Assembly: GCA_049964795.1 (NCBI GenBank)
Contig: JBMFWY010000007.1
Location: 1 to 42,515 of the forward strand
DNA: 42,515 nucleotides
Origin: Candidatus Micrarchaeia archaeon
GTDB taxonomy: Archaea > Micrarchaeota > Micrarchaeia > Micrarchaeales > Micrarchaeaceae
Direction of reading: 5' to 3'
The notes below the pieces were generated by a model. That model was not told the DNA's origin. It saw only the letters and a list, made by a program, of their open reading frames with translations, and did not search any database. Shown here one piece after another: positions 242 to 41,246 of the stretch. The translations under genes were made by a program, and so were the position numbers. Position 1 is the first letter of the stretch. Each line of letters opens with the position of its first letter.

Positions 242-1150
242 TTACGGCAAAGTGTAATTGGACCACCAATTGTTTGTATAAACTACGTTTGTAGGCACGC
301 CATTGTTGCCGTTGCCAGAGTAGTCTTTCGCGTTGCCGTTGAGAGGCCACCATGCAACAAGGTTTTGCAAATCGACAGGGGCGCCTCCAATGCCTTCTCT
401 ATATAGTGATTGTATTTCATTTGCAGAAAGTGCGGCATTGTAAATCTGTACATTTGCTATACTGCCATTGAACCATTCAGCGTCGCCGTAACCTGTATAG
501 CCTGGAGATATGGCGCCTATGCTTACAACAGAATTGGAATATGTAAGCTTGCCACTTACAGAGCTATTACCTATTTCTTGGCCGTCTGCAAACCATTGTT
601 TTATGCTGTTTCCTGTGGTAGAGTTATATGCTATGTTCACTCCAACAAAAATCCATTTTTTGAAAGTTGCATTAGGTATTGCATAGCCTGGCCCTATCCA
701 GTTATTTATAGTATCCCATTCCAAGCAGAAACCTTCAAAGTTGCTTGGATAGCATGAATGTGGCTGATTGTTATAGTCTATCTTAACCCCATATTGGTTC
801 TCCTTGTCAATTACGTCATGGTAAGGGCTGCCTGTTATATATATCCAAGCTGTTATTGTAAGATTCTGCTGTATGTTAAGCGGGCTTGATGTATTGTTAG
901 AGCCAGGAACCTCTATGTAATCTCCAACTCCTCCAGAGCGAAAGACATACTGCGGAAGTTCACCCGTGCATTCCCATTCAAGGTTTATAAATGAGGTAGT
1001 CCCTATGCCACCCGGCCTTAAAACTTGGCATGCACCTGGAGGCGTCCTAGGAGCAAAATTCATTGAATTGAAGAATCCAATTTGGAAAAGTACTCCCAGC
1101 ACAACAGCAATAATCAGTATTGCCCAGCCGTAGGTCATTAAGTATTCCAT
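242..1150 (-). CDS. Type IV pilin-like (class III signal peptide) LamG/concanavalin A-like surface protein
   Basis: In-frame upstream codons give RKAQ-SAMEYLMTYGWAILIIAVVLGVL; LamG motifs TITAWI, FNGSIANVQIYN, WWPLNGNAKDYSGNGNNG; true start is ambiguous (see findings). Confidence 0.85.
   Translation of the reverse strand: MEYLMTYGWAILIIAVVLGVLFQIGFFNSMNFAPRTPPGACQVLRPGGIGTTSFINLEWECTGELPQYVFRSGGVGDYIEVPGSNNTSSPLNIQQNLTITAWIYITGSPYHDVIDKENQYGVKIDYNNQPHSCYPSNFEGFCLEWDTINNWIGPGYAIPNATFKKWIFVGVNIAYNSTTGNSIKQWFADGQEIGNSSVSGKLTYSNSVVSIGAISPGYTGYGDAEWFNGSIANVQIYNAALSANEIQSLYREGIGGAPVDLQNLVAWWPLNGNAKDYSGNGNNGVPTNVVYTNNWWSNYTLP
300..352 (-). repeat. Diverged copy (4 mismatches in 53 nt) of the LamG DNA box found at 36856 and 37873
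   Basis: Reverse complement TGGTGGCCTCTCAACGGCAACGCGAAaGACTACTCtGGCAAcGGcAACAATGG aligned by eye. Confidence 0.9.
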
Positions 1151-3171: not shown

Positions 3172-3432
3172 TCCATTACCTTTCAAGCAAAATTAGTAGT
3201 TCTAACAAACAATACACATCCAAAATCTCATCACAATTAGGTTTCAAACCTGTATTGACTACCGCATCTGCTTTGTTAATAAAGGCATGTAATACATATT
3301 TATAACCTGCGTTTTGTCAAAATGGCGCCTTGTGCTATCGATTCTGTCTCTTTGCAGCATTTTATTTTTGTTACCCTTTTATCTTGTAAACATTTATTAA
3401 CTTGCACAGGGATAAAAGCAATCGGTGCTTGC

Positions 3433-4527
3433 ATGTTAGACAAGGTGTTCAAAGGAGAAATAGACTTCCTTCAAATCCTCGACGAAAATGGAAAAGTTGA
3501 CGAATCGCAGTTTCCTGCTTACCTAACAGAAGATCTTGCGGTTCAAATGTACAAATACATGAGTTTTGCAAGAACTTTAGATGCAAAGACTCTTAGCTTG
3601 CAGAGGCAGGGGCGCGCAGTAACCTATGCACCTCTTGTAGGAGAGGAAGCAACTCAGATAGGCAGCGCATTGGCCATGCGAAAAGATGACATTTTTGTTC
3701 CCAATTTCAGGCAGCATGGGGTTTACCTTGCGAGGGGGTTACCTCTTGAGCTATACTTCATATATTGGCGCGGGTTTGAAGAAGGTGGTGCCATACCTCC
3801 AGAGGTGAAAGGTTTGCCTGTAATAGTTCCTGTCGCTTCGCAGGTGCCGCATGCAGCTGGAATGGCGTTTGCGCAGAAATACAAGGGCACAGGCAATGCT
3901 GTAATAACCTACGTCGGCGATGGCGGGACTTCTGAAGGCGATTTTTATGAAGCCTTGAACTTTGCAGGAGTATTCAAGGTTCCTCTTGTTACAATAATAG
4001 AGAATAACCAGTGGGCGATTTCCGTGCCTAGGAAAAAGCAGACGGCTGCGGAAACTCTAGCACAGAAAGCGTTTGCCGCCGGAATCAAGAGCATACAGGT
4101 TGACGGCAATGACGTGTTTGCCGTATACAAGGCAGTAAAAGACGCGATAAGCTTTTCAACAGAAGGGCCTACTTTGATAGAATGTGTTACGTACAGGATG
4201 AGCATGCATACAACAGCGGATGACCCTACAAAGTACAGGCCCGATGCGGAAGTAGAAGCATGGAAGAAAAAGGACCCTATCGAAAGGCTTGGAAAGTACC
4301 TTCTTTCAAAAGGGCTTTGGGATGATTCAAAGGAGAAAGCGATGCAGGCTGAGCAGGTGGCAGCAATAGACGACGCAATAAAAAAGGCCGAAGCTTTTAA
4401 AGGCGACCCTGCAAGCATGTTCAAGAACGTTTACAGTTTCATGCCTGAAATGCTGCAGGAAGAGCTTGACGAGGCAGAGCAGAACAATTTCTGGCAGGAG
4501 AATGCTGAAGGTGCTGAAAAAGCGTAG
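3433..4527 (+). CDS. pdhA: Pyruvate/2-oxoacid dehydrogenase E1 alpha
   Basis: TPP motif GDGGTSEGDFYE...NN and YRMSMHTTADDP; GGTG RBS before ATG 3433; substrate (pyruvate vs branched-chain) not resolvable by eye. Confidence 0.92.
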   Translation: MLDKVFKGEIDFLQILDENGKVDESQFPAYLTEDLAVQMYKYMSFARTLDAKTLSLQRQGRAVTYAPLVGEEATQIGSALAMRKDDIFVPNFRQHGVYLARGLPLELYFIYWRGFEEGGAIPPEVKGLPVIVPVASQVPHAAGMAFAQKYKGTGNAVITYVGDGGTSEGDFYEALNFAGVFKVPLVTIIENNQWAISVPRKKQTAAETLAQKAFAAGIKSIQVDGNDVFAVYKAVKDAISFSTEGPTLIECVTYRMSMHTTADDPTKYRPDAEVEAWKKKDPIERLGKYLLSKGLWDDSKEKAMQAEQVAAIDDAIKKAEAFKGDPASMFKNVYSFMPEMLQEELDEAEQNNFWQENAEGAEKA

Positions 4528-4544: not shown

Positions 4545-5510
4545 ATGCAAATGAATATGGTAAGCGCAATAAACAATGCACTTGAGCTGATAATGAAGGA
4601 AAACAGCGATGTTGTGCTGCTCGGCGAAGATATAGGTAAAGACGGTGGTGTGTTCAGGGTTACTGATGGTTTGCTATCGAAGTTCGGTGAGAAAAGAGTA
4701 ATTGATACGCCCCTCGCAGAGTCCTCCATAATAGGAACTGCAATAGGTATGGCAGTAGCTGGCATGCATCCAATACCAGAAATACAGTTTGCAGGTTTCA
4801 TGTATGAGGCATTTGCCCAGCTAATAAACCATGCTTCAAGGTATAGAAGCAGATCCCGCTCCAGGTTTACTGTGCCCATGGTTGTGAGGGTTCCTGTGAG
4901 CGGCGGCGTGAGGACATTGGAGCACCATTCGGAAAGCCCCGAAGCATTTTATTCCCATGTAGGAGGCCTTATAGTAGTTGAGCCTTCTGGGCCTTACGAT
5001 GCAAAAGGCCTTCTTATAAAAGCATCAAGGATGCAGGATCCCGTGCTATTCTTGGAACCCACAAAACTTTACAGGCTTTTCAAGCAGGATGTGCCTGAAG
5101 ATTCTTACGAGCTTGAAATAGGCAAGGCAAATGTTGTGAGCGAAGGAGACAGCCTTACAATAATAACCTATGGCACTATGCTACCTTTGGTGAAAAGCGT
5201 TGTCGAAAAGAAAGGCGTAGCTGCGCAGATAGTAGACCTTCGCACCATAAATCCGCTCGATGAAAAAACAATAATCGAAAGCGTAAAGAAAACAGGCAAG
5301 GCAATGATAGTGCACGAGGCTCCATTCAGCTTCGGCGTAGGTGCAGAAATCGCCGCGCGCATAGCCGAAAAGGCAATATATGATCTTGACGCTCCAGTTC
5401 TTCGCGTTGCTTCAAACAGCTTCCCATACCCATTTCCGGGATATGAGCAGTACTACATACCAAACGAGGTAAAGGTTTCGAAAGCAATAGATAAGCTTCT
5501 CTCTTCGTGA
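4545..5510 (+). CDS. pdhB: Pyruvate/2-oxoacid dehydrogenase E1 beta
   Basis: GEDIG..GGVFRVT, DTPLAE, EIQF, EHHSESPE motifs; operon position. Confidence 0.93.
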   Translation: MQMNMVSAINNALELIMKENSDVVLLGEDIGKDGGVFRVTDGLLSKFGEKRVIDTPLAESSIIGTAIGMAVAGMHPIPEIQFAGFMYEAFAQLINHASRYRSRSRSRFTVPMVVRVPVSGGVRTLEHHSESPEAFYSHVGGLIVVEPSGPYDAKGLLIKASRMQDPVLFLEPTKLYRLFKQDVPEDSYELEIGKANVVSEGDSLTIITYGTMLPLVKSVVEKKGVAAQIVDLRTINPLDEKTIIESVKKTGKAMIVHEAPFSFGVGAEIAARIAEKAIYDLDAPVLRVASNSFPYPFPGYEQYYIPNEVKVSKAIDKLLSS

Positions 5511-5514
5511 TTCT

Positions 5515-6810
5515 GTGAAAGAAATAAAATTTGTTGATGTAGGAGAAGGAATAACAGAGGGCCACTTGCAGAAGTGGCTTGTAAATGACGGCGACACTGT
5601 AAAAGAGGACCAGTCGCTTGCACAGGTTGAAACCGACAAGGCTGTCGTAAATGTGCCTGCCCCAACAGCAGGGAAAATTCGGATAATGATCAAGGAAGGA
5701 AGCGATTTGCACCTTGGTGATCTGCTCGCATATATTGGCACGGATCAGGAGCTAAACGCTATATCTGCACAAGCCAAGCCTTCTTCAGTTGCAGCAGTTC
5801 AGCAAGCGCAACAAGCGAAGCCTGCGCAAATAGCTTCAAGCAAACCTTCTGCTCCAATTCCGCCATCGACACCGCCTTCCTCTGAGGCCGAGATTATTGC
5901 TACGCCTTCTGTGCGAAAGCTAGCCGAGCAACTCGGGGTAAGTCTCGCTCACGTGCACGGCAGTGGTCCGCACGGCAGGATACTCGAAAGCGATGTGCAC
6001 GCCGCAGCTTCTGGCGTTTCAAAAGCGGCTACCTCATCAATAGCCAGGACCTCTACGCACGAGGCGCCCCCTTCTCCTTCCAAGCCTGCAGAAGAAAAGC
6101 ACGCGGGAGAAATAGAGCGCGTTCCATTGTCCCAAACAAGGAAAGCGATAGCGCGCAACATGGAGCTTTCCTGGACAATACCTCGCGCTACGCATATGGA
6201 CATAATAAATGCAACCTCCTTGTTCAATATAGTGGAAAAGGAGAAGAAAAACGCGGAGGCTTCATTTGGAGTCAAGGTAACTTTCCTGCCTTTCATAATA
6301 AAGGCAGTGGTGGAAGCGCTTAAAGAAAACCCGCATTTCAATGCAAGTTACGACAAAGATAATCTAGAAATTCTTGTTAAAAAATATTACAATATAGGGC
6401 TTGCGGCTGAAGCTCCAGACGGCCTTAAGGTTGTAGTGGTAAGAAATGCGGACAAGAAAAGCATAATCGAGCTTGCCAAGGAGATAGAAGAGCTGAGCAA
6501 GAAAGTGAGAGACCAGACAATAAGCCTAGACGAGATGAAAGACAGCAGTTTCACCATAACAAATATAGGTAGCCTTGGAGGAGGATTCCTTTCTGTGCCT
6601 GTTATAAACTATCCAGATGTTGCAATATTAGGCATACACATGATAAGGGACTTTCCTGTAGTCTCTGACGGAATGGTAAAAGTCGGCAAGATCCTGCCCT
6701 TTTCATTGGTATTTGACCATAGGGTCGTGGATGGCGCCGAAGCAGTAAAATTTGGCAATGCGCTGATAAAATATCTTGAAGATCCAGATTTCCTTGAAAT
6801 GCTTGATTGA
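5515..6810 (+). CDS. pdhC: Dihydrolipoamide acyltransferase E2
   Basis: Single lipoyl domain (ETDKA), Ala/Pro/Ser linker, E3-binding domain (ATPSVRKLA...GSGPHGRI), catalytic DHRVVDG. Confidence 0.95.
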   Translation: MKEIKFVDVGEGITEGHLQKWLVNDGDTVKEDQSLAQVETDKAVVNVPAPTAGKIRIMIKEGSDLHLGDLLAYIGTDQELNAISAQAKPSSVAAVQQAQQAKPAQIASSKPSAPIPPSTPPSSEAEIIATPSVRKLAEQLGVSLAHVHGSGPHGRILESDVHAAASGVSKAATSSIARTSTHEAPPSPSKPAEEKHAGEIERVPLSQTRKAIARNMELSWTIPRATHMDIINATSLFNIVEKEKKNAEASFGVKVTFLPFIIKAVVEALKENPHFNASYDKDNLEILVKKYYNIGLAAEAPDGLKVVVVRNADKKSIIELAKEIEELSKKVRDQTISLDEMKDSSFTITNIGSLGGGFLSVPVINYPDVAILGIHMIRDFPVVSDGMVKVGKILPFSLVFDHRVVDGAEAVKFGNALIKYLEDPDFLEMLD

Positions 6811-6875: not shown

Positions 6876-8252
6876 GTGACTATGGTAATGGGTTCGCTTC
6901 CAGAGGATGTCGATATTGCAATCATAGGTGCAGGGGTTGGTGGCTACGTCGCCGCGATACGCGCCGCGGAGCTGGGCGCAAGCGTCGCACTAGTAGAAAA
7001 AGAGAAACTGGGCGGCCATTGCCTCAATTACGCATGTATCCCCTCAAAGACATTAATTAACATAGCTGATACCTTTTACGCGGCATCGCACTCGCAGAAA
7101 TTTGGCATAAATTCCGATAATGTCTCTATAGACGCGAAGAAGATGTATGAATGGAGAATTCAAGCTTCGAAGAAGCTGGAAGATGGTGTCGGGTTTTTAT
7201 GCAACTCCAACGGCGTGGAAGTGATAAAGGGGGAAGCGACATTTATATCTTCAAATACGCTGCAGCTGACAAACGGGACTTCCCTAGACTTCAAATACGC
7301 AATTATTGCAACAGGTTCAGAGCCTGTCAATCTTAATGGATTTGAATTTGGAGAAAAGATAATAGATTACAAGAAGGCGTTGATGCTTGATTACATACCT
7401 GAAAGCATGGCTATAATAGGTGCGGGCTATGTTGCGGTAGAAATAGGTACTTTATACGCCAAACTGGGCAGCAAGGTTTCGATAATAGCGCGTTCCGACG
7501 TGCTTTCCCACTTTGACAGGGATGCAGTGAACATTGTAAAGAAAAGAATGCAAGAGCTTGGGATAAAAATATATACCGGTGCCGTGCCCATTTCGTATGA
7601 CGGCAAGTTCATGAAGCTTGGAGATAGCAGCCTTGTAGAGGCCTCGCTTGTCGTTGTTGCTATAGGGCTCAGGCCTTATACCTCCGGCCTCGGCCTTGAG
7701 AATACAAAGGTCGAGCTCAATGAAAAAGGATTTGTGAAAGTGGATAGCTCGCTCAGGACAACGGACCCAAATATCTATGCAGTAGGCGACGTTATAGGCG
7801 AGCCGATGCTTGCCCACAAAGCAATAAGGCAGGGTGTAGTAGTCGCGGAGGTGATAAAAGGCTTGAGGAAAAGTTATGACAATATTGTTGTGCCCGCTGT
7901 AATATTTTCCGATCCTGAAATAGCTATAGCCGGCAGCATAGAAGAAAAGGAAGGCATCACCGTGACAAAGTTTCCTCTCACTGCACTCGGAAGAAGTATA
8001 GCCCTTGGCACCACTAACGGGTTTGTCAAGATAGCCATTGACAGCAACTCAATTGTAAAAGGCGTGGAGATTGTTTCTGAGAGCGCTAACGCGATGATAG
8101 CCGAAGCGGCATTGGCCATTGAGATGGGCGCAACAGCAGAAGATATAGCGGCAACAATACATCCACATCCAACATACAGCGAGGCAGTGCAGGAAGCAGC
8201 CGAGGCGGCGATAGGGGCGCCAATCCACTTTTTTTACGGTAAAAAGCAGTGA
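6876..8252 (+). CDS. lpdA: Dihydrolipoamide dehydrogenase E3
   Basis: FAD GAGVGG, redox GGHCLNYACIPSK, C-terminal HPHPTYSE; alternative start ATG 6882; atypical pyridine-nucleotide fingerprint. Confidence 0.92.
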   Translation: MTMVMGSLPEDVDIAIIGAGVGGYVAAIRAAELGASVALVEKEKLGGHCLNYACIPSKTLINIADTFYAASHSQKFGINSDNVSIDAKKMYEWRIQASKKLEDGVGFLCNSNGVEVIKGEATFISSNTLQLTNGTSLDFKYAIIATGSEPVNLNGFEFGEKIIDYKKALMLDYIPESMAIIGAGYVAVEIGTLYAKLGSKVSIIARSDVLSHFDRDAVNIVKKRMQELGIKIYTGAVPISYDGKFMKLGDSSLVEASLVVVAIGLRPYTSGLGLENTKVELNEKGFVKVDSSLRTTDPNIYAVGDVIGEPMLAHKAIRQGVVVAEVIKGLRKSYDNIVVPAVIFSDPEIAIAGSIEEKEGITVTKFPLTALGRSIALGTTNGFVKIAIDSNSIVKGVEIVSESANAMIAEAALAIEMGATAEDIAATIHPHPTYSEAVQEAAEAAIGAPIHFFYGKKQ

Positions 8253-8256
8253 ATTA

Positions 8257-9012
8257 TTGATGGACATTGAAAGGGATTTTATCCCATCAAGCCAAGAAAC
8301 TTCAGAAGGCAATATATACTTTCTTCATCACGTGCCATTAAGCTCAACGCCTGTTAAAAATATTGTATTCCTGCACGGCGTGGGCGCAAATTCTCACGTA
8401 TGGAAAAAAGTTGTAGAGCTTATGCCGGAAAGCATCGGCGTAGATCTGCTAGACTTGCTAGGCCATGGCATGTCCGATGCCCCAAGGATAGATTATACAG
8501 TAGAGGTCCAAGCCAAGGCGCTGCGCGATTTCCTCTCAAGCCAAAAAGTTTTGGACGCGATCTTGGTTGGCCATTCCTATGGTGGTTGGATTTCCGCTTA
8601 CTACTCCTCAATTTTTCATGAGCTTGGCGGCATGCTTCTGGAGGATCCTGCAGGCATAAAGGAGCAGTTTGACGATATAATAAGCCAAGGCATGGTTTCA
8701 GAATACAAATCGCGCATGCTCAAGCAGCTCCTTAATATGAATGGAAACAAGGATTACGTAATGGAAAGCATACTCAATGAGGATTTCGCCGTAAAGTACC
8801 AGCTTTCAGAAGATACACTATCAAAAATAAGAACCAAATGTGCACTTGTATGGGGAGAAAATGATGAGCTTGTAAATCCAAAGTATGCAGAATACCTGCT
8901 CAAATGGATAAAGGGGAGCACGCTTGAGATAATAGAAGGCGCTGGCCATGCCTCCCACTATACGCACGCTCAACAATTTTATGAAGTGCTGAAGAAGCTG
9001 GCCGAAATATGA
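8257..9012 (+). CDS. Alpha/beta hydrolase
   Basis: FLHGVG, DLLGHG, nucleophile GHSYGG, WGENDE, AGH. Confidence 0.9.
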   Translation: MMDIERDFIPSSQETSEGNIYFLHHVPLSSTPVKNIVFLHGVGANSHVWKKVVELMPESIGVDLLDLLGHGMSDAPRIDYTVEVQAKALRDFLSSQKVLDAILVGHSYGGWISAYYSSIFHELGGMLLEDPAGIKEQFDDIISQGMVSEYKSRMLKQLLNMNGNKDYVMESILNEDFAVKYQLSEDTLSKIRTKCALVWGENDELVNPKYAEYLLKWIKGSTLEIIEGAGHASHYTHAQQFYEVLKKLAEI

Positions 9013-9135: not shown

Positions 9136-9867
9136 ATGCCTCAAACTCCTGCTACAATAGTCCAGAAACCTTACGTAATATCTGAGATAATCCACGAAAC
9201 CCCAGATGTCGACATATTCAGGTTCAAGGCCACAGATTCGACAAAACTCAATTTTGATCCAGGCATGTTCGTAATGATAACCTATTCCAATCCCGATACA
9301 AAAGAAAAGATTGCCAGGGCTTTTTCGATAGCTTCAGCCCCAAACAGCGAAACATTGGAGTTCTTTGTGCACATGGTGCACGGCAGGTTCACCTCGCATC
9401 TCGATACTGCAAAAATCGGTGATACTTATTACATGACCGGCCCTTACGGACAATTCAAGTTTATCCCCCAAGAAGACAAGAAAGTCCTTTTCATAGCGGG
9501 CGGCACAGGGCTCGCGCCCATGATGTCGATGCTTCGCTACATTCGCGATTTGCATTCCGATAATGATGTTGTGCTCATTTACAGTGTAAGGTATCCCAAT
9601 GAGATAATAAGGAAGCAGGAGCTTGGTGATTTGGAAAAAGAGATAAAGCTAAAGACCGTTGTCACTGTAACCAGGCCGCAGGAGGGAGACGGATGGAGTG
9701 GCGAAACAGGGCACATAAGCACTGATACAATAAAAAAGTACGCGCCCGATTTTGCGGAAAGGAAAGTTTACATCTGCGGGCCCCTGAATTTTACAAAGGC
9801 AATGCACGACGTCTGCACCGCTATAGGCATAAGCGAAGACAGGATAAAAGCGGATGTATGGGGCTGA
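9136..9867 (+). CDS. FNR-like FAD/NAD(P)-dependent oxidoreductase
   Basis: RAFSIAS, GPYGQF, IAGGTGLAPM, YICGP motifs. Confidence 0.9.
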   Translation: MPQTPATIVQKPYVISEIIHETPDVDIFRFKATDSTKLNFDPGMFVMITYSNPDTKEKIARAFSIASAPNSETLEFFVHMVHGRFTSHLDTAKIGDTYYMTGPYGQFKFIPQEDKKVLFIAGGTGLAPMMSMLRYIRDLHSDNDVVLIYSVRYPNEIIRKQELGDLEKEIKLKTVVTVTRPQEGDGWSGETGHISTDTIKKYAPDFAERKVYICGPLNFTKAMHDVCTAIGISEDRIKADVWG

Positions 9868-35649: not shown

Positions 35650-35814
35650 GAACACCGCGTTATATATAAGCAAGATAAGGTTAAAGTTTTTATTAGTGAA
35701 TATTCAATAGGGTAGTATTTAGCCTCGCGCAAAGAGCAAATCCGCAAAATCGATCAATGCAAAAAGGTATGAACAAGCATGTGCAAACTAGCTGCCAGCA
35801 AGCAAGGTGTAGAT

Positions 35815-38517
35815 TTGTATAATAAAGGAAAAACTAGGGGAAAGGCGCAGATAACATTAGAGTTTCTGATTGCTTACTCTCTAGTCCTGCTAATCTTCCT
35901 TATAATTTTCGCTCTGATTGCCACTCAGAGGGCTTCAACTTTGGCTTCGCAGGATTACTCTTCGATGCAGCTTATCTCGCAGACTGTTTCTACTGCCATA
36001 GACACTGCCTTAGCTTCAGGCAATGGCTATTCCGCTACTATACCATTGCCTTCAGCCATAAGCACCCAGCCATACAACTTGTCGTTGTCAAGCACAGGTG
36101 TAGTTATAGCAGGCATGCAGATAGGCAAAGAAACAGTAAGCGCCCAGGCATTTAGCAACGCCAGGAATCTAGTTATAAACGGTACTGTGATTGCAACAGG
36201 CAACGGCGTCACGCTCTATTCTCTACCAGCATACAAAGGCACAATTTATATTGCAAACTCCAAGGGCACAATATACATAGATGAGCAGCCTGTTTCTACG
36301 CTTGCTCTTGCAGGCACTCTCCAAGCCAACGCTACCTTCATAGGAAAGGCAGCAGAATTCAGCGGCAACAATAGCTACATAGTTGCTGCCTCAACAGTCA
36401 ATACAGTATCCTCTGGCACATTTTCGGCATGGGTTTATTCGAACGGTTGGGTCGGTAACTCTAGGATAATAGGTAGCGTAAACAACGTTCCTGCTGAGCT
36501 GCTCACAAACAGCCCGGGAGTTTTGGCCGGCTATGTGGAGCAAGGGGGTGTAGCAACGGTCGTAAGCTCCGGGTATACGATTCCTGCAGAAAAATGGGTG
36601 CTTGTGACTATGACCTTCGGCCCTTCCGGAATAGCTTTTTATGTCAACGGTCAAAGCGTATATACTTCTTCAACTCCAACTTCAGGCGCAACTTCAACGC
36701 CTTTACTCGGATGGGATAGCGCAAGTGGAACCGATTTTTGGGATGGTCTCATCGCAAACGCGCAAATATATGGCACAGCACTTTCGGCTTCGCAAGTTCA
36801 GCAACTTTACCAAGAAGGCATAGGCGGCGCACCCGTCGCAAGTGCAAGCCTGCTTGGCTGGTGGCCTCTCAACGGCAACGCGAACGACTACTCAGGCAAT
36901 GGAAACAACGGAGCGCCTTACAAAATAAATTATATCGGCGTTGCCCAGATAACTGCGCAAGTCAAAAATGAAAACGGCGCCAGCGCCTCAGGAGACCTTG
37001 TGGGATTTACCTCTACCTATGGCAATTTTAGCGGTTCCGGAAAAGGCAACTTTGCAACCTATTCAAATTCGAGCGGAGTCGCTACCGCAATCCTAGACGC
37101 TAACACTTCAAGCCCCTCGCTAGCAAACGTCACTATTACCGCTTTCAATGGCAATTACTCAAGCGAGGCAAACATCGTAGGCTGGTGGCCTTTGAATATA
37201 GGTGCAGGAAGCACTGCATATGACCTGAGTGCAAATTATAACAATGGTGATTTTTCTAACTATGCATGGTCGTCAATGGAAAATTCCACCAATTTCGCAG
37301 TAGCAGAATTTCCTGGAGACCTCGCGGGGGTTACAGGCAACAACATAGAAGACGGGTTTGTCACTATAAACAATACAGACATATACAGCATACCCGCAAA
37401 CCGCACTTTTAGCATAGTGGCATGGATCTATTACAAGGGTGCAACTGCCAACCATTGCCAAGGCATATTTGGTGATTGGCCAGGTCCCGGACCAGGCTTC
37501 CAGCTTTTAGGCTATGGGTGCGCCATCCTTTCCGTAAATGGCTCCAGCATAAGCTGGCCTGCAGGCACGCCTTCCTTTCCAAAAGGTACTTGGGAAATGG
37601 TAACTGCAGAGTACACAGCCAGGACAGGCATGGCATCAGTTTATCTAAATGACTCTCTTTTTGCAATGCAACAGCTTCCTGTTTCCCTTTCGCTCGCGCA
37701 AAAGCTACCTTACTATATAGGAGATGACGCGTGGCAAGGCTCTGGCTATGATACCTTCAACGGCAGCATCGCAAATGTCCAGCTATACTCCTCATTTCTT
37801 ACTCAAGCCCAGATAACTCAGCTGTACAAAGAAGGGATCAACGGCGCGCCCTTGAATAATGCAGACTTGGTCGGCTGGTGGCCTCTCAACGGCAACGCGA
37901 ACGACTACTCAGGCAATGGAAACAATGGAAAGATAAACTACAATGTTTCTTTTGTAAACCAGAGATTCGGCATGCGCAACAATTATTCAATAGCAAGCTT
38001 CAACGGGCAGAACAGCTATATACAAATTCCAATCACTTCTGCGCTTTCCACAAACAGCTTCACCTGGGTTTTATGGATGTATCCAAACACATGGCAATCA
38101 AACAATGCAGGGATTTTTGGTCAAGCAAATATTGGAACGGGTTATCCATATATGATAGAGCAGGGTTCTCCGTCTTCCCCCTTACTGCAATTCAGCAATG
38201 ACGGCGGCGGCAGTAGCAGCGCATATACTCCTCTCCTATTGAACACAATGCAGAATGTAGCAGGAGTGTACAATTATACAAGTGGCACTATCTCAATTTA
38301 TGTTAACGGCAGGCTAATTCAATCAGCCACATCAAGTCCGATTGCAAGAGGCTCTAGCCCTATCTATTTTGGCTACTTCCCTACCTCTGGTCTTTATTTT
38401 GACGGTTTTATATCTAACGCCCAAATCTATAACACTGCCCTCTCTTCATCTCAAATTCAACAGCTTTACTTGCAGGGTTTGCCCCAATACAAGAGGCTTA
38501 CAATCCCATTAGGTTGA
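35815..38517 (+). CDS. Large type IV pilin-like adhesin with three LamG domains and an invasin/intimin Big-1-like Ig domain
   Basis: KAQ-ITLEF plus hydrophobic helix; three G.I.N.Q.Y LamG ends; ITAQVKNENG...VGFTS...SNSSGVATAIL resembles Big-1; AGGTG RBS before TTG 35815. Confidence 0.85.
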   Translation: MYNKGKTRGKAQITLEFLIAYSLVLLIFLIIFALIATQRASTLASQDYSSMQLISQTVSTAIDTALASGNGYSATIPLPSAISTQPYNLSLSSTGVVIAGMQIGKETVSAQAFSNARNLVINGTVIATGNGVTLYSLPAYKGTIYIANSKGTIYIDEQPVSTLALAGTLQANATFIGKAAEFSGNNSYIVAASTVNTVSSGTFSAWVYSNGWVGNSRIIGSVNNVPAELLTNSPGVLAGYVEQGGVATVVSSGYTIPAEKWVLVTMTFGPSGIAFYVNGQSVYTSSTPTSGATSTPLLGWDSASGTDFWDGLIANAQIYGTALSASQVQQLYQEGIGGAPVASASLLGWWPLNGNANDYSGNGNNGAPYKINYIGVAQITAQVKNENGASASGDLVGFTSTYGNFSGSGKGNFATYSNSSGVATAILDANTSSPSLANVTITAFNGNYSSEANIVGWWPLNIGAGSTAYDLSANYNNGDFSNYAWSSMENSTNFAVAEFPGDLAGVTGNNIEDGFVTINNTDIYSIPANRTFSIVAWIYYKGATANHCQGIFGDWPGPGPGFQLLGYGCAILSVNGSSISWPAGTPSFPKGTWEMVTAEYTARTGMASVYLNDSLFAMQQLPVSLSLAQKLPYYIGDDAWQGSGYDTFNGSIANVQLYSSFLTQAQITQLYKEGINGAPLNNADLVGWWPLNGNANDYSGNGNNGKINYNVSFVNQRFGMRNNYSIASFNGQNSYIQIPITSALSTNSFTWVLWMYPNTWQSNNAGIFGQANIGTGYPYMIEQGSPSSPLLQFSNDGGGSSSAYTPLLLNTMQNVAGVYNYTSGTISIYVNGRLIQSATSSPIARGSSPIYFGYFPTSGLYFDGFISNAQIYNTALSSSQIQQLYLQGLPQYKRLTIPLG
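36856..36908 (+). repeat. 53-bp exact direct repeat, copy 1
   Basis: GGCTGGTGGCCTCTCAACGGCAACGCGAACGACTACTCAGGCAATGGAAACAA. Confidence 0.95.
37873..37925 (+). repeat. 53-bp exact direct repeat, copy 2
   Basis: Identical to 36856-36908, 1017 bp downstream, same reading frame. Confidence 0.95.
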
Positions 38518-38521
38518 AATC

Positions 38522-39064
38522 ATGCAATATCTAAAAGCGCAGTTTTGGAGCTTTGACCTCATCTTTTCAATCATAATATTCAGCGTGGCGCTGACTATAC
38601 TTACCTTTACGTGGTTCGGAGTCAATTCGCAGCTTTCGCTTGCATACGGTAACGGAGCAACGCTTATGCAGCTGCAAGCTTCTACTTTTGCACAAACCTT
38701 GATGTCACCTGGCGCTCCATCAGATTGGGCAGGTCTTGTAAACACAACCAATCCAAGCACTTGGGGCCCAGTGAGTATAGGTCTTGCTTCAAGGCCTGGC
38801 AGCACAACGCTTTCTTTGCAGAAAATATACGCATTCATGTCAATGGCAAATGCAAATTACCAAGCTACTAAGCCCTATCTCGGCATAGCTTACGAATACT
38901 ATGTTGTGATAAAAGGGCCTGCGTTCAACATAACAATAGGAAGCAGCCCATCGCAGGGAAAAGCTCTTACTACTTACGTAGTCAAAAAGAGTGTAGTAGT
39001 GGACGGCTCGCCAGCGGTAATGGATGTAATAGTATGGACCAACAAGCCTCTTGCAGTGGTGTAG
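38522..39064 (+). CDS. Type IV pilin-like protein (class III signal peptide)
   Basis: LKAQ-FWSFDL plus hydrophobic helix; tightly coupled in the operon. Confidence 0.8.
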   Translation: MQYLKAQFWSFDLIFSIIIFSVALTILTFTWFGVNSQLSLAYGNGATLMQLQASTFAQTLMSPGAPSDWAGLVNTTNPSTWGPVSIGLASRPGSTTLSLQKIYAFMSMANANYQATKPYLGIAYEYYVVIKGPAFNITIGSSPSQGKALTTYVVKKSVVVDGSPAVMDVIVWTNKPLAVV

Positions 39065-39065
39065 A

Positions 39066-41246
39066 ATGAAAAGCATGAAAGGGTTTATCTTTACGCTTGA
39101 CGCGGTGTTTGCTCTTATAGTAGCAAGCGTTGGCGTTTCAATACTTCTTTACATGCATTTTACCTCTCCCAATCTTTCGCAGCCCCAGACCACAGAAGCA
39201 TTCAGCATATTGCAAAACCTTCTAAACACAAAAATCGGGCAGCTTACAGGCTCGCAATATGCAGTTTACGCTTCGAAGACAGGCAGCTCCAATTTCGCAT
39301 GGCCTGCCTTTGGAGGCAATTCATCACTTTCTTCAGGCAAGCCATACGGCCCGCAGGCCCTGGATCTTTTGTACAATTTTACCGCTTCCAGCAATATAGT
39401 ACCGATTATCGCTGCAGGCAGTGGCGTGGTCGCATTTGGAGCAGGTTCTGAGCTGTACGCATTGAACGCAACCACTGGCTCTTTAGTTTCTGGATTTCCT
39501 GTATCTATTGGTGGCACTTTCCTCGGCTCGCCAGTAATATACAAAGGCACAATAATATACGCCAATTCAAGCGGATATCTGACCGCTGTCAGCGCTTCTA
39601 CCGGCGCGAGGCTGTGGAGCAGCAACATCGCCATTTCTGTAGATACGCCTATCGCGCTTGATGACAATTATCTCGCCTTTGGAAGCGGCTATGACCTTTA
39701 TCTTGCTTATCCTGAAAACGGCTCTATCGCGGCAAGCGCCGCACTTCCAAACGAAGCCCAAGCACCCGCATACGCAAACGGCGAATTTGTTGCAACTACT
39801 TCTTCTTCAGGAACTCAAAACTATTTGGTTTCTTATGCTCTCAGCGGCAACGTGCTAACAAGGAATTGGATGGTTGCCCTTTCTACTTCACCTGTAACTA
39901 CCCCCTCGATATATGACAGCTTTATTTTTGTAGGTAGTGGAAGCAATCTTGAAGGATATACTCTTGGAGGCGTGCAAAAATACAATGTTGCATTGGATTC
40001 GCAAATCTTTGGAGGGATTGCAGGATCAAGCGGCGACGTATTTGCCGAAACTTCAGACAAGCTGTACAGCTTCAACCTCTCTACCGCCACTGCAAGCTAT
40101 GCATCTTTGCAGCCTGATTCAGAAAATGCTACTCCTTCTGCAAGCAGCGAATATGTGTATGTAATGCCGAGCGGCAGCGAGTTTGACGCGTATTCGCTGT
40201 CAAGCGGCGCAAGGATATGGAACTTTACCTTTCCCTCTTCGGCTTACAACAAATACGCCAGCATAACCCTTGCCTACGGCAATGCTTACGTAGCGGCAGG
40301 AAGCAATCTTTATGCTTTTGGCACATGCCGCGCTCCATCGAACCAGAGCGTTGCAGGCGCTCTTGCAGAATTTTATCTTAATAATGAAGGGGGCTGTGCA
40401 GGTGAGATTCTCAGAAGCATATCACCCTCGCAAAACACCGGAATATTCATAAACGGCTCTTTTGCTCCTTCTTTGCAAACTGCCACTTTCAATGGCACAT
40501 GGTCAAGCGGTCCATACAATTCAAACAGCTTCATACGCACGTCTTTGCCCATAGGAGGAAAGAACTATAACTTTACAATAACAATGTGGATTAGGCCTAG
40601 CAGTGTTCAGAATCTCAGCCATTCGTGGACGACAGCGGTATTCTCTTTTTCAGGTTATCAAGGCTTTGGGATACAGAACAGCTGCCTTCCAGGCACGTGC
40701 TTAGTGCTTCACAGGTGCAGCCCTGCAGATACTTCGAGCGGCACACTTCTGCCCTATTCGATTTTCAACAATAACTGGTATTTTATAGCGGTGGCAGTAA
40801 AATACCCTGATTACTACTGGCAGATAGACAACATAAGCACAAAAGACGTAAACACAAACAACTACACAGGCAATCCTCCAGCTACAATAGGAACGCAATT
40901 CGCGCAATGCGACAGCAACGCTTTCAACGGGAGCATCGCAAACGTACAAGTATATAACAAGACGCTCTCTCCATCGCAAATAAGCCAAATATATCAGCAG
41001 GGCCTGTATGGCTTGCCGCTAAATATAAAAGGCCTTCTTGCATGGTATCCTCTTGATGGCAACGCGAACGACTACAGCGGAAACAATGAAGCAGGCATAC
41101 CTCATGGCATAAGCTATGAAAATTCCGGCTATCTTCCGGGAAGCCTTGCCGGTGCGTATCAGGTCAGCAAGGGGAGCGTCCCGCTAAGCATCAGCGTGAA
41201 CGGCGTAAGCAAGCCTTATAATATAAGCGCGGTAGTATGGAGATGA
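39066..41246 (+). CDS. Type IV pilin-like adhesin with PQQ-like beta-propeller and LamG domain
   Basis: MKG-FIFTLDA leader; repeats LYALNATTG, AVSASTGARLW, SSGARIW; C-terminal LamG. Confidence 0.85.
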   Translation: MKSMKGFIFTLDAVFALIVASVGVSILLYMHFTSPNLSQPQTTEAFSILQNLLNTKIGQLTGSQYAVYASKTGSSNFAWPAFGGNSSLSSGKPYGPQALDLLYNFTASSNIVPIIAAGSGVVAFGAGSELYALNATTGSLVSGFPVSIGGTFLGSPVIYKGTIIYANSSGYLTAVSASTGARLWSSNIAISVDTPIALDDNYLAFGSGYDLYLAYPENGSIAASAALPNEAQAPAYANGEFVATTSSSGTQNYLVSYALSGNVLTRNWMVALSTSPVTTPSIYDSFIFVGSGSNLEGYTLGGVQKYNVALDSQIFGGIAGSSGDVFAETSDKLYSFNLSTATASYASLQPDSENATPSASSEYVYVMPSGSEFDAYSLSSGARIWNFTFPSSAYNKYASITLAYGNAYVAAGSNLYAFGTCRAPSNQSVAGALAEFYLNNEGGCAGEILRSISPSQNTGIFINGSFAPSLQTATFNGTWSSGPYNSNSFIRTSLPIGGKNYNFTITMWIRPSSVQNLSHSWTTAVFSFSGYQGFGIQNSCLPGTCLVLHRCSPADTSSGTLLPYSIFNNNWYFIAVAVKYPDYYWQIDNISTKDVNTNNYTGNPPATIGTQFAQCDSNAFNGSIANVQVYNKTLSPSQISQIYQQGLYGLPLNIKGLLAWYPLDGNANDYSGNNEAGIPHGISYENSGYLPGSLAGAYQVSKGSVPLSISVNGVSKPYNISAVVWR

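What the first reader, a model, noticed from the sequence alone, without database searches (positions are those of the whole stretch)
7419..7520. E3 of the 2-oxoacid dehydrogenase has an NADP(H)-type fingerprint
Seen: the pyridine-nucleotide fold reads GAGYVAVE (G182-A187) ... VSIIA205R206SDVLSHFD. Known: NAD-specific lipoamide dehydrogenases have GxGxxG and an acidic Glu at the end of beta-B, whereas NADP-specific glutathione and mercuric reductases have GxGxxA-type motifs, no acidic residue there and an Arg next to it. These are the positions used in classic cofactor-swap engineering. The redox centre, HPHPT tail and operon context are those of an E3. Inference: a natural NADPH-producing pyruvate dehydrogenase complex, possibly a main NADPH source for a reduced-genome archaeon. 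The second Arg of glutathione reductase is not conserved, so dual specificity is possible.
Basis: partly seen in the sequence, partly recalled or inferred. Interest (0 to 1): 0.72.

Follow-up and report, generated by a model that had tools for sequence, protein, structure and literature searches.

The report
NADP-type E3 in archaeal oxoacid dehydrogenase
The last enzyme of a pyruvate-dehydrogenase-type complex in a tiny Micrarchaeota archaeon, and in all its close relatives, has a cofactor pocket built like those of NADPH enzymes, so the complex probably makes NADPH rather than the textbook NADH; this needs an enzyme assay.

Summary
Window 7419-7520 encodes GAGYVAVE...IIARSDVLSHFD of a 458-aa dihydrolipoyl dehydrogenase (E3). 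It scores 446.8 bits on TIGR01350 (cut-off 408.8) and is the last gene of an E1alpha-E1beta-E2-E3 operon.

In the AlphaFold model Ala205 is the last residue of strand beta-B, where NAD-dependent E3s carry Glu. Arg206-Ser207 follow, and the third glycine of GxGxxG is Ala.

This is a lineage trait, not chance:
- 120 of 120 close homologues keep Ala-Arg-Ser/Thr-Asp, and all have a basic residue at position 211 or 212.
- 68 of 68 fetched genomes of the order lack the acidic residue.
- 134 of 145 family representatives (50% clusters, query included) keep it.

The segment aligns without a gap to the same segment of human thioredoxin reductase 1 (VRSillrgFD). NAD-type E3s need a one-residue gap.

The genome (91.6% complete) shows no G6PD, isocitrate dehydrogenase family, PntB or ADH_N match. 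It does encode an NADPH-type thioredoxin reductase and MerA.

Most likely the E3 reduces NADP+, preferentially or dually (about 0.62). This is unproven: no assay was possible, the malic enzyme's cofactor is unknown, and no lipoate ligase was found. I found no published description. This scan noted similar E3s earlier in bacterial DNA. I class it as a new variant of a known kind.

The parts
3322..4527 (+). E1 alpha subunit of the 2-oxoacid dehydrogenase complex (thiamine-diphosphate-binding). The true start may lie downstream of the first ATG.
   Evidence: PF00676 E1_dh, E 3.9e-88. TIGR03181 PDH_E1_alph_x scores 440.2 bits against a cut-off of 411.35, matching residues 49-384.
4545..5510 (+). 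E1 beta subunit.
   Evidence: Transket_pyr plus Transketolase_C. NF006667 scores 270.5 bits, below its cut-off of 321.
5515..6810 (+). E2 dihydrolipoyl acyltransferase: lipoyl domain (Lys42 in the motif ETDKA), E3-binding domain at residues 127-161, and catalytic domain.
   Evidence: Biotin_lipoyl, E3_binding and 2-oxoacid_dh domains.
6876..8252 (+). E3 dihydrolipoyl dehydrogenase, 458 aa from GTG 6876. Database calls of the identical protein are 456 aa, consistent with a start at ATG 6882.
   Evidence: TIGR01350 scores 446.8 bits against a cut-off of 408.8. Best solved relatives are all E3s, e.g. 1ebd at E 3.2e-115. The AF2 model has pLDDT 94, and Foldseek top hits are all E3s with TM 0.91-0.95.
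7020..7037 (+). Redox-active disulfide C49-L-N-Y-A-C54.
   Evidence: Sequence. C54 is invariant and C49 nearly invariant in alignment A1.
7419..7436 (+). Dinucleotide-binding loop G182-A-G-Y-V-A187. This is GxGxxA instead of the GxGxxG of NAD-type E3s.
   Evidence: Position 187 is A in 93 and S in 27 of 120 close homologues. It is A or S in only 1 of 134 acidic-type representatives.
7482..7517 (+). End of strand beta-B and the following loop: I203-I-A205-R206-S207-D208-V-L-S211-H212-F-D214. This is the expected site for the adenosine 2'-position.
   Evidence: Strand 200-205 in the model. Ala205 lies opposite the Glu of 1ebd. The segment aligns without a gap to TrxR1 'vmVRSillrgFD'. A205, R206 and D208 are invariant in 120 of 120 homologues, and a basic residue is at 211 or 212 in 120 of 120.
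8166..8183 (+). C-terminal catalytic His431...Glu436 (HPTYSE) of the dimer interface domain.
   Evidence: H429, H431, P432 and E436 are invariant in A1.
8257..9012 (+). Alpha/beta-hydrolase gene starting 4 bp after E3. It is possibly associated with the operon; its role is unknown.
   Evidence: Abhydrolase_1 and Abhydrolase_6. It follows E3 in 19 of 30 related loci.
9136..9867 (+). FNR-like FAD/NAD(P)-binding flavoprotein, 243 aa. It is possibly associated; its role is unknown.
   Evidence: FAD_binding_6 plus NAD_binding_1. It was seen downstream in 7 of 30 related loci; that count is limited by the 1.5-kb flank.

Best explanation
The gene encodes the only E3 (dihydrolipoyl dehydrogenase) found in a Micrarchaeota genome. 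It is the last gene of an E1alpha-E1beta-E2-E3 operon. It should work as any E3 does: the dihydrolipoyl arm of E2 reduces the C49/C54 disulfide, electrons pass to FAD, and FAD reduces a pyridine nucleotide.

The nucleotide pocket has been remodelled in the way that distinguishes NADPH enzymes of this superfamily. The beta-B Glu that binds the adenosine ribose hydroxyls of NAD and repels a 2'-phosphate is Ala205. Arg206 and Ser207 follow. A further basic residue (His212 here) sits in the shortened loop. The third glycine of the loop is Ala187.

The enzyme therefore most likely accepts NADP+ at least as well as NAD+, so oxidative decarboxylation of the 2-oxoacid yields NADPH. In this 0.72-Mb genome that NADPH would feed the NADPH-type thioredoxin reductase and mercuric reductase.

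Shown here: the gene's identity as an E3, its operon context, the motif and its position in the fold, and its fixation across the order. Inferred: NADP+ binding, the preference ratio, and the physiological role.
For: 1. Identity as an E3.
- TIGR01350 scores 446.8 bits (cut-off 408.8). MerA and GR models fall below their cut-offs.
- Foldseek top hits are all E3s.
- It is the only hit over the TIGR01350 cut-off in the genome. The second-best hit is a MerA (TIGR02053 525.3 > 454.45, with a C-terminal Cys-Cys).
- An E2 match lies within 1.5 kb upstream on the same strand in 26 of 30 related loci.

2. The site.
- Ala205 ends beta-B and aligns with the Glu of 1ebd.
- The 96-aa nucleotide domain aligns without a gap to human TrxR1: 'GASYVALE...vmVRSillrgFD' against 'GAGYVAVE...iiARSdvlshFD'. 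The E3s 1ebd and 1lvl and the GR-like 4dna each need a one-residue gap.
- In passages of PMC10910545, Arg218 and Arg224 of GR (conserved with Mtr Arg199/Arg205) are described as likely contacts of the NADPH 2'-phosphate (an RxxxxxR motif), and GxGxxA/G as the pyrophosphate motif.

3. Experimental precedent (passages of PMC8406311).
- Wild-type E. coli Lpd has no detectable NADP+ activity.
- The single change E205A or E205G gives NADP/NAD kcat/Km ratios of 0.6-1.9 and lets an NADPH auxotroph grow.
- An engineered variant with E205V plus four further changes prefers NADP+ 100-fold.

4. Conservation.
- 120 of 120 close homologues keep A205, R206, S/T207 and D208.
- Positions 211/212 co-vary so that one is always basic: S-H 51, S-R 33, S-K 24, R-T/L/R/S 12.
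- 68 of 68 order genomes fetched lack an acid at 205. The next residue is Arg in 63 and His in 5.
- Among the 134 acidic-type representatives, only 1 has A/S at the third Gly, 5 have R/K at +1, and 3 have a basic residue at 211/212.

5. Phylogeny. With the motif columns removed, the clade is nested among acidic-type E3s, and its sister (L040) is acidic-type.

6. Other lineages. Other Micrarchaeia lineages carry other NADPH-like versions inside E1a-E1b-E2-E3 clusters: QRSER (as in the genome's own MerA), [YH]RG[EG]R (as in GR-like enzymes), and ARS/SRS.

7. Demand and supply in this genome (91.56% complete).
- The thioredoxin reductase has the motif 'VHRRDEFRA', and a MerA is present.
- No match was found to G6PD_N, Iso_dh, PNTB or ADH_N.
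Against: - No enzyme assay or ligand-bound model exists. Fingerprints predict cofactor use imperfectly.
- In E. coli the single Glu-to-Ala change gave only about equal use of both cofactors and lower activity.
- Aligned on the 'FD' anchor, the GR/TrxR second Arg is Ser211 here. His212 is a weaker phosphate ligand.
- Asp208 is invariant and lies in the loop. It could disfavour a 2'-phosphate or bind the ribose hydroxyls of NAD. I could not inspect coordinates. An acid at the same +3 position does occur in the genome's own MerA ('QRSER').
- NADP synthesis is only weakly documented. The NAD-kinase candidate (which has a GGDGT motif) scores 38.8 bits at best, below all cut-offs, and hits the PDB NAD kinase 1yt5 at E 0.0046.
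- A malic enzyme of undetermined cofactor preference is present.
- No BPL_LplA_LipB lipoylation enzyme was found in this genome or in its genus mate. This leaves the activity of the whole complex open.
- 28 of 58 relatives with this E3 type also have an Iso_dh-family gene. The abstract of PMC8623467 reports an NADP+-specific IDH in a cultured Micrarchaeon.
- The coupling of the Glu loss with the Gly-to-Ala change rests on few independent events. There are 4 pairs on supported branches, 3.2 on average go the same way and none the other, and the sign-test median p is 0.25.
- From general knowledge: cells usually keep NADPH/NADP+ high, which works against the forward E3 reaction.
Confidence: 0.62

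Rival explanations
1. Relaxed, dual-specificity E3 that still works mainly with NAD+ in the cell. Loss of the Glu merely removes discrimination, and the flux follows whichever pool is larger and more oxidised.
For: The E. coli Lpd variants E205A and E205G use both cofactors about equally, with ratios of 0.6-1.9. The query has His, not Arg, as its second basic residue. The NAD-kinase candidate is weak.
Against: Mere relaxation does not explain the invariant Arg206-Ser207, the always-basic 211/212 pair, or the Gly-to-Ala/Ser change at 187 across 120 of 120 homologues. These are features that build a phosphate site. They are rare in acidic-type E3s: 5, 3 and 1 of 134 respectively.
Confidence: 0.2
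2. NAD+-specific E3 that recognises the ribose through a different acid (for example the invariant Asp208) in the shortened loop. In that case the fingerprint is misleading.
For: Asp208 is invariant in 120 of 120 homologues. The loop is one residue shorter than in NAD-type E3s, so its register could differ.
Against: An acid at +3 coexists with an NADPH-type motif in the genome's own MerA ('QRSER'). Among the 38 further order genomes this position is Gly, Thr or Glu in 4, so it is not strictly required. The invariant Arg next to the strand end is hard to explain for an NAD-only site.
Confidence: 0.08
3. The enzyme runs mainly in reverse, as an NADPH:lipoyl-protein reductase. It would keep the E2 lipoyl domain (or another dithiol) reduced for antioxidant defence rather than serving catabolic 2-oxoacid oxidation.
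For: NADPH-type sites are typical of reductases in this superfamily. An earlier scan note (e1-1166427, unchecked) reads Lpd plus lipoyl-carrier genes as a possible defence module. No NADH-binding NuoF module was found in the genome.
Against: Intact E1alpha and E1beta genes are kept next to E2-E3 here and in 7 of 8 loci from other lineages. That argues for the full oxidative complex. No peroxiredoxin/AhpD-type partner was sought or seen in the operon.
Confidence: 0.07
4. Chance substitution, assembly error or a decaying gene.
For: A degenerate version does exist in one genus. In G128 and G016 the loop reads N-D-D-Y-A-A and the CIPSK lysine is lost.
Against: The motif is fixed in 120 of 120 database homologues and 68 of 68 genomes. 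The ORF is intact, the model has pLDDT 94, and all catalytic motifs are present.
Confidence: 0.01

Closest known systems
NAD+-dependent dihydrolipoyl dehydrogenase (E3, EC 1.8.1.4), e.g. the Geobacillus stearothermophilus PDH E3 (PDB 1ebd) and Thermus E3 (2eq6)
   Same: Same family (TIGR01350 over its cut-off) and same fold (TM 0.93). It has the same redox disulfide, FAD motif and His-Glu dyad, and the same place as last gene of an E1-E2-E3 operon.
   Different: The nucleotide site differs. It has GxGxxA instead of GxGxxG, Ala instead of the beta-B Glu, Arg-Ser after it, a loop one residue shorter, and a basic residue at 211/212.
E. coli Lpd variants that reduce NADP+: laboratory-evolved E205A/E205G, and the engineered five-fold mutant with E205V
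   Same: The same position is changed (Glu to Ala at the end of beta-B). The engineered set also adds an Arg next to it. Those variants make PDH/OGDH produce NADPH in vivo (passages of PMC8406311).
   Different: Those are laboratory products. This one is natural, fixed in a whole archaeal order, and has its own loop shortening. The residue list of the engineered variant beyond E205V is recalled by me (it also appears in an unchecked scan note). I did not read it in a paper.
NADPH-dependent class I disulfide reductases: mammalian thioredoxin reductase 1, glutathione reductase, mercuric reductase
   Same: The nucleotide-binding segment is nearly the same. It aligns without a gap to TrxR1 ('GASYVALE...VRSillrgFD'). 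It resembles the GR-like 4dna ('YRGkeilsRFD') and the genome's own MerA ('QRSER'). The GR Arg218/Arg224 pair is described as likely 2'-phosphate contacts in PMC10910545.
   Different: It is not a member of those families. MerA scores 307.1 (cut-off 454.45) and GR 257.4 (cut-off 480). It has no C-terminal Cys pair or Sec tail. Its operon context is that of an E3.
NADP(H)-using lipoamide dehydrogenases of anaerobic glycine-utilising bacteria (Eubacterium acidaminophilum, Clostridium cylindrosporum). Recalled from memory.
   Same: They are natural lipoamide dehydrogenases reported to use NADP(H).
   Different: As I recall, they serve the glycine decarboxylase/reductase systems of Firmicutes, not a 2-oxoacid dehydrogenase operon. 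I could not read these papers or compare their sequences. The one paper found was seen only as a search listing.
Thermoplasma acidophilum 2-oxoacid dehydrogenase complex. Recalled from memory.
   Same: It is an archaeal four-gene E1alpha-E1beta-E2-E3 operon of the same layout. As I recall it is active on branched-chain 2-oxoacids and pyruvate.
   Different: As I recall it was assayed with NAD+.

Membership tests
Dihydrolipoyl dehydrogenase (E3; NCBIfam TIGR01350) | Whole-protein score above the curated family cut-off | tested here: met
   446.8 bits against a cut-off of 408.8. It is the only hit over the cut-off in the genome.
Dihydrolipoyl dehydrogenase (E3; NCBIfam TIGR01350) | N-terminal FAD GxGxxG motif and the redox-active CxxxxC | tested here: met
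   G18-A-G20-V-G-G23 and C49-LNYA-C54.
Dihydrolipoyl dehydrogenase (E3; NCBIfam TIGR01350) | C-terminal His...Glu catalytic pair (HPxxxE) in the interface domain | tested here: met
   H431-P-T-Y-S-E436, invariant in alignment A1.
Dihydrolipoyl dehydrogenase (E3; NCBIfam TIGR01350) | E3 fold | tested here: met
   The model has pLDDT 94. The best Foldseek hits are all E3s (9a5h, 2eq6, 1ebd) with TM 0.93-0.95.
Dihydrolipoyl dehydrogenase (E3; NCBIfam TIGR01350) | Encoded with E1 and E2 of a 2-oxoacid dehydrogenase complex | tested here: met
   The window carries E1alpha, E1beta, E2 and E3 in a row. An E2 match lies upstream in 26 of 30 related loci.
Dihydrolipoyl dehydrogenase (E3; NCBIfam TIGR01350) | NAD-type nucleotide site: GxGxxG plus Glu/Asp at the end of beta-B (EC 1.8.1.4 is NAD+-linked) | tested here: not met
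   The site reads GAGYVA with Ala205. 134 of 145 representatives (query included) have the acid. This is the point of the finding. It qualifies 'NAD+-dependent'; it does not disqualify 'E3'.
Dihydrolipoyl dehydrogenase (E3; NCBIfam TIGR01350) | [quoted passage not shown] | not tested
   The complex-prediction job (E3 dimer plus E2 residues 118-170) could not be queued. E2 does carry a PF02817 E3_binding domain.
Dihydrolipoyl dehydrogenase (E3; NCBIfam TIGR01350) | Dihydrolipoamide:NAD(P)+ oxidoreductase activity | not testable with these tools
   This needs an enzyme assay.
NADPH-dependent disulfide reductases (GR / high-Mr TrxR / MerA) | GxGxxA loop, no acid at the end of beta-B, and Arg immediately after it | tested here: met
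NADPH-dependent disulfide reductases (GR / high-Mr TrxR / MerA) | Second basic residue of the RxxxxxR pair | tested here: inconclusive
   Position 211 is Ser and 212 is His in the query. Arg or Lys is at 212 in 57 of 120 homologues, and Arg is at 211 in 12 of 120. The 4dna chain has Arg at the 212 position.
NADPH-dependent disulfide reductases (GR / high-Mr TrxR / MerA) | Family model over its cut-off, and family-specific C-terminal redox centre | tested here: not met
   MerA scores 307.1 < 454.45 and GR scores 257.4 < 480. The C-terminus is ...HFFYGKKQ, with no Cys pair.

The most novel reading that the evidence does not exclude
Across the class Micrarchaeia, 2-oxoacid dehydrogenase complexes have been rewired to NADP+. 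This happened either once anciently or several times, and it appears in at least three motif flavours: ARS, QRSER and [YH]RG[EG]R. If so, these would be, as far as I could find, the first natural NADP+-linked PDH-type complexes described. In ultra-small archaea where no oxidative pentose-phosphate enzyme or transhydrogenase was found (and, in about half of the genomes examined, no isocitrate dehydrogenase), 2-oxoacid oxidation would be the principal supply of NADPH. That NADPH would feed thioredoxin-based redox defence and mercury detoxification.
Probability: 0.4. Interest if true: 0.75.

Novelty: new variant of a known kind. Interest (0 to 1): 0.6.

Why it matters
Textbooks treat pyruvate and 2-oxoacid dehydrogenase complexes as NADH producers. 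NADP+-reducing versions described in the papers I read are laboratory products made by engineering or forced evolution. A natural, clade-wide NADP-type E3 would show that evolution has taken the same route.

It would also help explain how genome-reduced DPANN archaea obtain NADPH without the usual pathways. That would change how their metabolism is reconstructed from genomes, because current annotations call all of these proteins plain 'dihydrolipoyl dehydrogenase'.

Finally, it offers ready-made natural sequence pairs for cofactor-switch studies. One example is L043 (ARS-type) against L054 (Glu-type), which share 277 identical residues over 476 aligned columns.

Tried and rejected
- Complex prediction.
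- Sequencing runs. None was listed for the operon, so there is no statement on expression.
- Model coordinates. They are not available to scripts. I could not measure contacts around Arg206, Ser207, Asp208 and His212, or dock NADP.
- Number of origins. I first read the trees as showing several independent origins of the ARS-type motif. Parsimony gave 11 changes on 105 rows and 8 changes on 51 rows. The AU test does not reject a single clade of all three ARS-type, one-residue-shorter groups: the constrained tree is 7.16 lnL units better and p-AU is 0.62. Convergence among those groups is therefore not claimed.
- Independent-pairs test. The test of coupling between Glu loss and Gly-to-Ala found only 4 supported pairs and was not significant.
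- Malic enzyme cofactor. It could not be assigned. The best solved relatives are labelled both NAD- and NADP-dependent.
- Literature searches that found nothing:
  - six phrasings of 'NADP-dependent lipoamide/dihydrolipoamide/dihydrolipoyl dehydrogenase';
  - Micrarchae + NADPH + dihydrolipo;
  - thioredoxin reductase + Arg221 + Arg226.
- Other literature results. Lipoamide dehydrogenase + GXGXXA + NADP found one paper, on TrxR (search listing only). PMC3904984 does not mention NAD in its main text.
- Promoter and terminator scan. The operon shows no more sites than shuffled sequence. The scan uses a bacterial consensus, which is not informative for an archaeon.
- Notes of this scan on this genome: none.
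- Script failures. The first regex for E3 ORFs was too strict and caught 13 of 50 loci; phmmer replaced it.
Full report
WHAT IS THERE.
The window is contig 7 of a 724,721-bp genome in 34 contigs, 91.56% complete. Sources that name close homologues of its E3 mostly call them Candidatus Micrarchaeaceae or Micrarchaeota archaea.

On the + strand, six genes lie in a row:
- E1alpha, 3322-4527
- E1beta, 4545-5510
- E2, 5515-6810
- E3, 6876-8252
- an alpha/beta hydrolase, 8257-9012
- an FNR-like flavoprotein, 9136-9867

Family searches support these assignments.
- E1alpha is over the cut-off of TIGR03181 (440.2 against 411.35).
- E2 has lipoyl, E3-binding and catalytic domains.
- E3 is over the cut-off of TIGR01350 (446.8 against 408.8). 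It stays below the cut-offs for MerA (307.1 against 454.45) and glutathione reductase (257.4 against 480).

The best solved relatives are all E3s, with 1ebd at E 3.2e-115. An AlphaFold2 model built from a 40-sequence alignment has pLDDT 94 and pTM 0.90. Its best Foldseek matches are all E3s, with TM 0.91-0.95.

The genome has no second E3. The only other strong hit is a mercuric reductase (TIGR02053 525.3 against 454.45, with a C-terminal Cys-Cys) that sits next to cysteine-rich membrane and thioredoxin-like genes.

THE OBSERVATION.
Window 7419-7520 translates to GAGYVAVEIGTLYAKLGSKVSIIARSDVLSHFDR. Database calls of the identical protein are 456 aa, consistent with a start two codons later.

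In the model, beta-A is 177-181, the helix is 185-196 and beta-B is 200-205. Ala205 is therefore the last residue of the strand, which is the position of the ribose-binding Glu in NAD-type enzymes. HMMER places Ala205 opposite the Glu of 1ebd ('tilEgage') and needs a one-residue gap in the query.

When the 96-residue nucleotide domain is searched alone, human thioredoxin reductase 1 aligns without any gap. TrxR1 reads 'vvGASYVALE...vmVRSillrgFD' and the query reads 'iiGAGYVAVE...iiARSdvlshFD'. The E3s 1ebd and 1lvl, and the GR-like chain 4dna ('liYRGkeilsRFD'), each need one gap.

Passages of PMC10910545 describe Arg218 and Arg224 of glutathione reductase as likely contacts of the NADPH 2'-phosphate (an RxxxxxR motif), and GxGxxA/G as the pyrophosphate motif. 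That TrxR1 uses the Arg-Ser...Arg of this segment in the same way is my recollection. A search for it found no paper.

HOW GENERAL IT IS.
Among the 120 best database homologues (70-100% identical by the listed values):
- A205, R206 and D208 are invariant.
- Position 207 is S in 118 and T in 2.
- Position 187 is A in 93 and S in 27.
- Positions 211/212 are S-H 51, S-R 33, S-K 24, R-T 9, and R-L, R-R, R-S one each. At least one of the two is therefore basic in 120 of 120.

A search of 201 genomes of the phylum found strong orthologues in the two families of the order (48 of 56 and 27 of 35 genomes with a match). I fetched 68 of the 69 genomes with an orthologue at E 4e-197 or better, own genome included.
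- None of the 68 has Asp or Glu at position 205.
- The next residue is Arg in 63 and His in 5.
- Position 207 is Ser in all 68.

One of these 68 (G029, locus L014) is flagged unpublished. The count is 67 of 67 without it.

By contrast, I looked at the 145 sequences of at least 400 aa from the best 150 representatives of 50%-identity clusters (query included).
- 134 have the acid and 11 do not.
- Of the 134, only 1 has Ala/Ser at the third glycine, 5 have Arg/Lys after the strand, and 3 have a basic residue at 211/212.

Sources that name these proteins call them 'dihydrolipoyl dehydrogenase' or a generic FAD/NAD(P) oxidoreductase, without mention of the cofactor.

EVOLUTION.
With the motif columns removed, the order's E3s form one fully supported clade. 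Its sister is an acidic-type E3 of another family of the class (L040). The clade is nested among acidic-type sequences (FastTree on 105 rows; IQ-TREE quick on 51 rows). The NADP-like state is therefore derived.

Elsewhere in the class, non-acidic E3s come in other flavours:
- ARS or SRS with the same one-residue shortening (L043, L046, L053, L057)
- QRSER, the motif of the genome's own MerA (L041, L042)
- [YH]RG[EG]R or HHGDR, as in GR-like enzymes (L048, L050, L052, L056)

I re-fetched 8 such lineages with longer flanks. Seven have the E3 next to E2 and E1 genes: one Glu-type and six non-acidic. In one of the seven the contig ends before E1alpha. G123 is the exception.

How many times the switch happened is not resolved. 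Parsimony counts 11 and 8 changes on the two trees. The AU test does not reject a single clade of the three ARS-type groups (p 0.62, with the constrained tree scoring better). Phylogenetically independent pairs are too few to test the coupling of Glu loss with the Gly-to-Ala change. Raw counts over 104 rows are 72 with both the acid and Gly, 27 with neither, and 5 mixed.

MECHANISM.
Steps shown: the gene is an E3, in an OADH operon, with an intact FAD site, disulfide and His-Glu pair.

Steps inferred: the nucleotide site binds NADP+. The inference rests on three things.

(a) Family-wide rules. The acid at the strand end hydrogen-bonds the 2'/3'-hydroxyls of NAD and clashes with a 2'-phosphate. 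Arg and Ser after the strand, plus a second basic residue, bind that phosphate.

(b) Direct experiment on a homologue. E. coli Lpd has no detectable NADP+ activity. The single change E205A or E205G gives NADP/NAD efficiency ratios of 0.6-1.9 and supports growth of an NADPH auxotroph. A variant with E205V plus four other changes prefers NADP+ 100-fold (passages of PMC8406311).

(c) The natural protein carries the Glu loss plus the Arg, the Ser, the extra basic residue and the Gly-to-Ala change, all under strict conservation.

I therefore put about 0.62 on NADP+ being used at least as well as NAD+. Within that, roughly even odds fall between clear preference and dual use.

PHYSIOLOGY.
NADPH users are present in the genome:
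- a low-Mr thioredoxin reductase with the 'VHRRDEFRA' motif
- the MerA

Searches of the genome found no match to G6PD_N, Iso_dh, PNTB, ADH_N, HMG-CoA reductase or the NADH-binding NuoF module. At 91.56% completeness this is 'not found', not 'absent'.

Present are:
- a malic enzyme whose cofactor I could not assign
- one aldehyde dehydrogenase closest to glutamate-semialdehyde dehydrogenase
- a weak NAD-kinase candidate with a GGDGT motif

The E3 could therefore be a major NADPH source here. This is not general. An Iso_dh-family gene is present in 46 of 91 genomes of the order, but in 0 of 2 of this genus. Of the 58 genomes with the ARS-type E3 that were in both searches, 28 have one and 30 do not (my hand tally of handles). 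The abstract of PMC8623467 reports that the IDH of a cultured Micrarchaeon is NADP+-specific with a very high Km for NADP+. The tallies include the flagged genomes G029 and G198. Removing them changes no conclusion.

CAVEATS.
- There is no assay, no ligand-bound model, and no access to model coordinates.
- Asp208 is invariant and unexplained.
- No BPL_LplA_LipB lipoylation enzyme was found in this genome or in its genus mate. It is present in 42 of 91 genomes of the order, in several of them within a few kb of the E3 gene. The activity of the complex itself therefore needs proof.
- The substrate of E1 (pyruvate or branched-chain 2-oxoacids) was not addressed.

NOVELTY.
Searches of the held library for natural NADP-dependent lipoamide dehydrogenases found nothing (six phrasings). 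Searches linking Micrarchaeota, NADPH and dihydrolipoyl enzymes also found nothing. Chen et al. (PMC5864196, passages read) report the PDH complex in 25 Micrarchaeota genomes without any mention of NADP. Supplementary tables of that paper were not opened.

From memory, NADP(H)-using lipoamide dehydrogenases are known from glycine-fermenting anaerobes. I could not check this.

Two earlier notes of this scan (e1-5251300 and e1-5251301; unchecked AI notes on bacterial DNA) describe NADP-type E3s in PDH operons of sediment bacteria. The scan has therefore seen the phenomenon before on other DNA. This is not independent evidence.

I class the finding as a new variant of a known kind.

Noticed in passing
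L038 (G128:C2:83400-85000) and L039 (G016:C1:503300-504900): In one genus of the same family, the E3 orthologue (52-53% identical) keeps the FAD motif, both redox cysteines and the HPHPT...E tail. Its nucleotide loop reads N-D-D-Y-A-A instead of GxGxxA, and the lysine of CIPSK is lost. It probably cannot bind NAD(P) in the usual way.
   Followed up: partly
whole genome G000; relatives: No BPL_LplA_LipB (lipoate ligase / octanoyl transferase) match was found in this genome or in its genus mate, although E2 has a normal lipoyl-lysine motif (ETDK42A). The family is found in 42 of 91 genomes of the order, in several of them within a few kb of the E3 gene (e.g. G042, G038, G063, G060).
   Followed up: partly
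window 8257-9012 (+): An alpha/beta-hydrolase gene starts 4 bp after the E3 stop. It follows E3 in 19 of 30 related loci. Its best NCBIfam match is the hydrolase-like part of the acetoin dehydrogenase E2 (AcoC-type), at 78.2 bits and far below the cut-off.
   Followed up: partly
window 9136-9867 (+): A 243-aa FNR-like FAD/NAD(P)-binding flavoprotein without an iron-sulfur domain lies downstream of the operon. It is seen in the same place in 7 of 30 related loci, a count limited by the flank length. It could take electrons from the NAD(P)H made by the complex.
   Followed up: no
L041/L042 (G200, G039), L048/L050/L052/L056 (G109, G059, G180, G157), L043/L046/L053/L057: Other lineages of the class carry different non-acidic E3 motifs (QRSER; [YH]RG[EG]R or HHGDR; ARS/SRS). 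Of the eight lineages re-fetched with longer flanks (G123, G030, G170, G104, G056, G200, G109, G157), the E3 lies in an E1-E2-E3 cluster in all but G123. L054 (Glu-type) is nested with L043 and L046 (ARS/SRS-type) and makes a natural swap pair.
   Followed up: partly
G000:C5:415-4788 (L002): A mercuric reductase (463 aa, C-terminal Cys-Cys, 'LLQRSERII' NADPH motif) lies after a Cys-Cys-containing membrane protein and a thioredoxin-like protein. This is a small mer-type detoxification cluster.
   Followed up: partly
G000:C17 (L058, L059): A very divergent NAD-kinase-like protein (275 aa, GGDGT motif, best 38.8 bits and below every cut-off) lies about 5 kb from the malic enzyme gene on the same contig.
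   Followed up: partly
window 242-1150 (-), 35779-38517 (+), 39051-41246 (+): Three large proteins carry concanavalin-A-like (Laminin_G_3) domains, one of them together with a PQQ-like beta-propeller. They are probably surface proteins.
   Followed up: no
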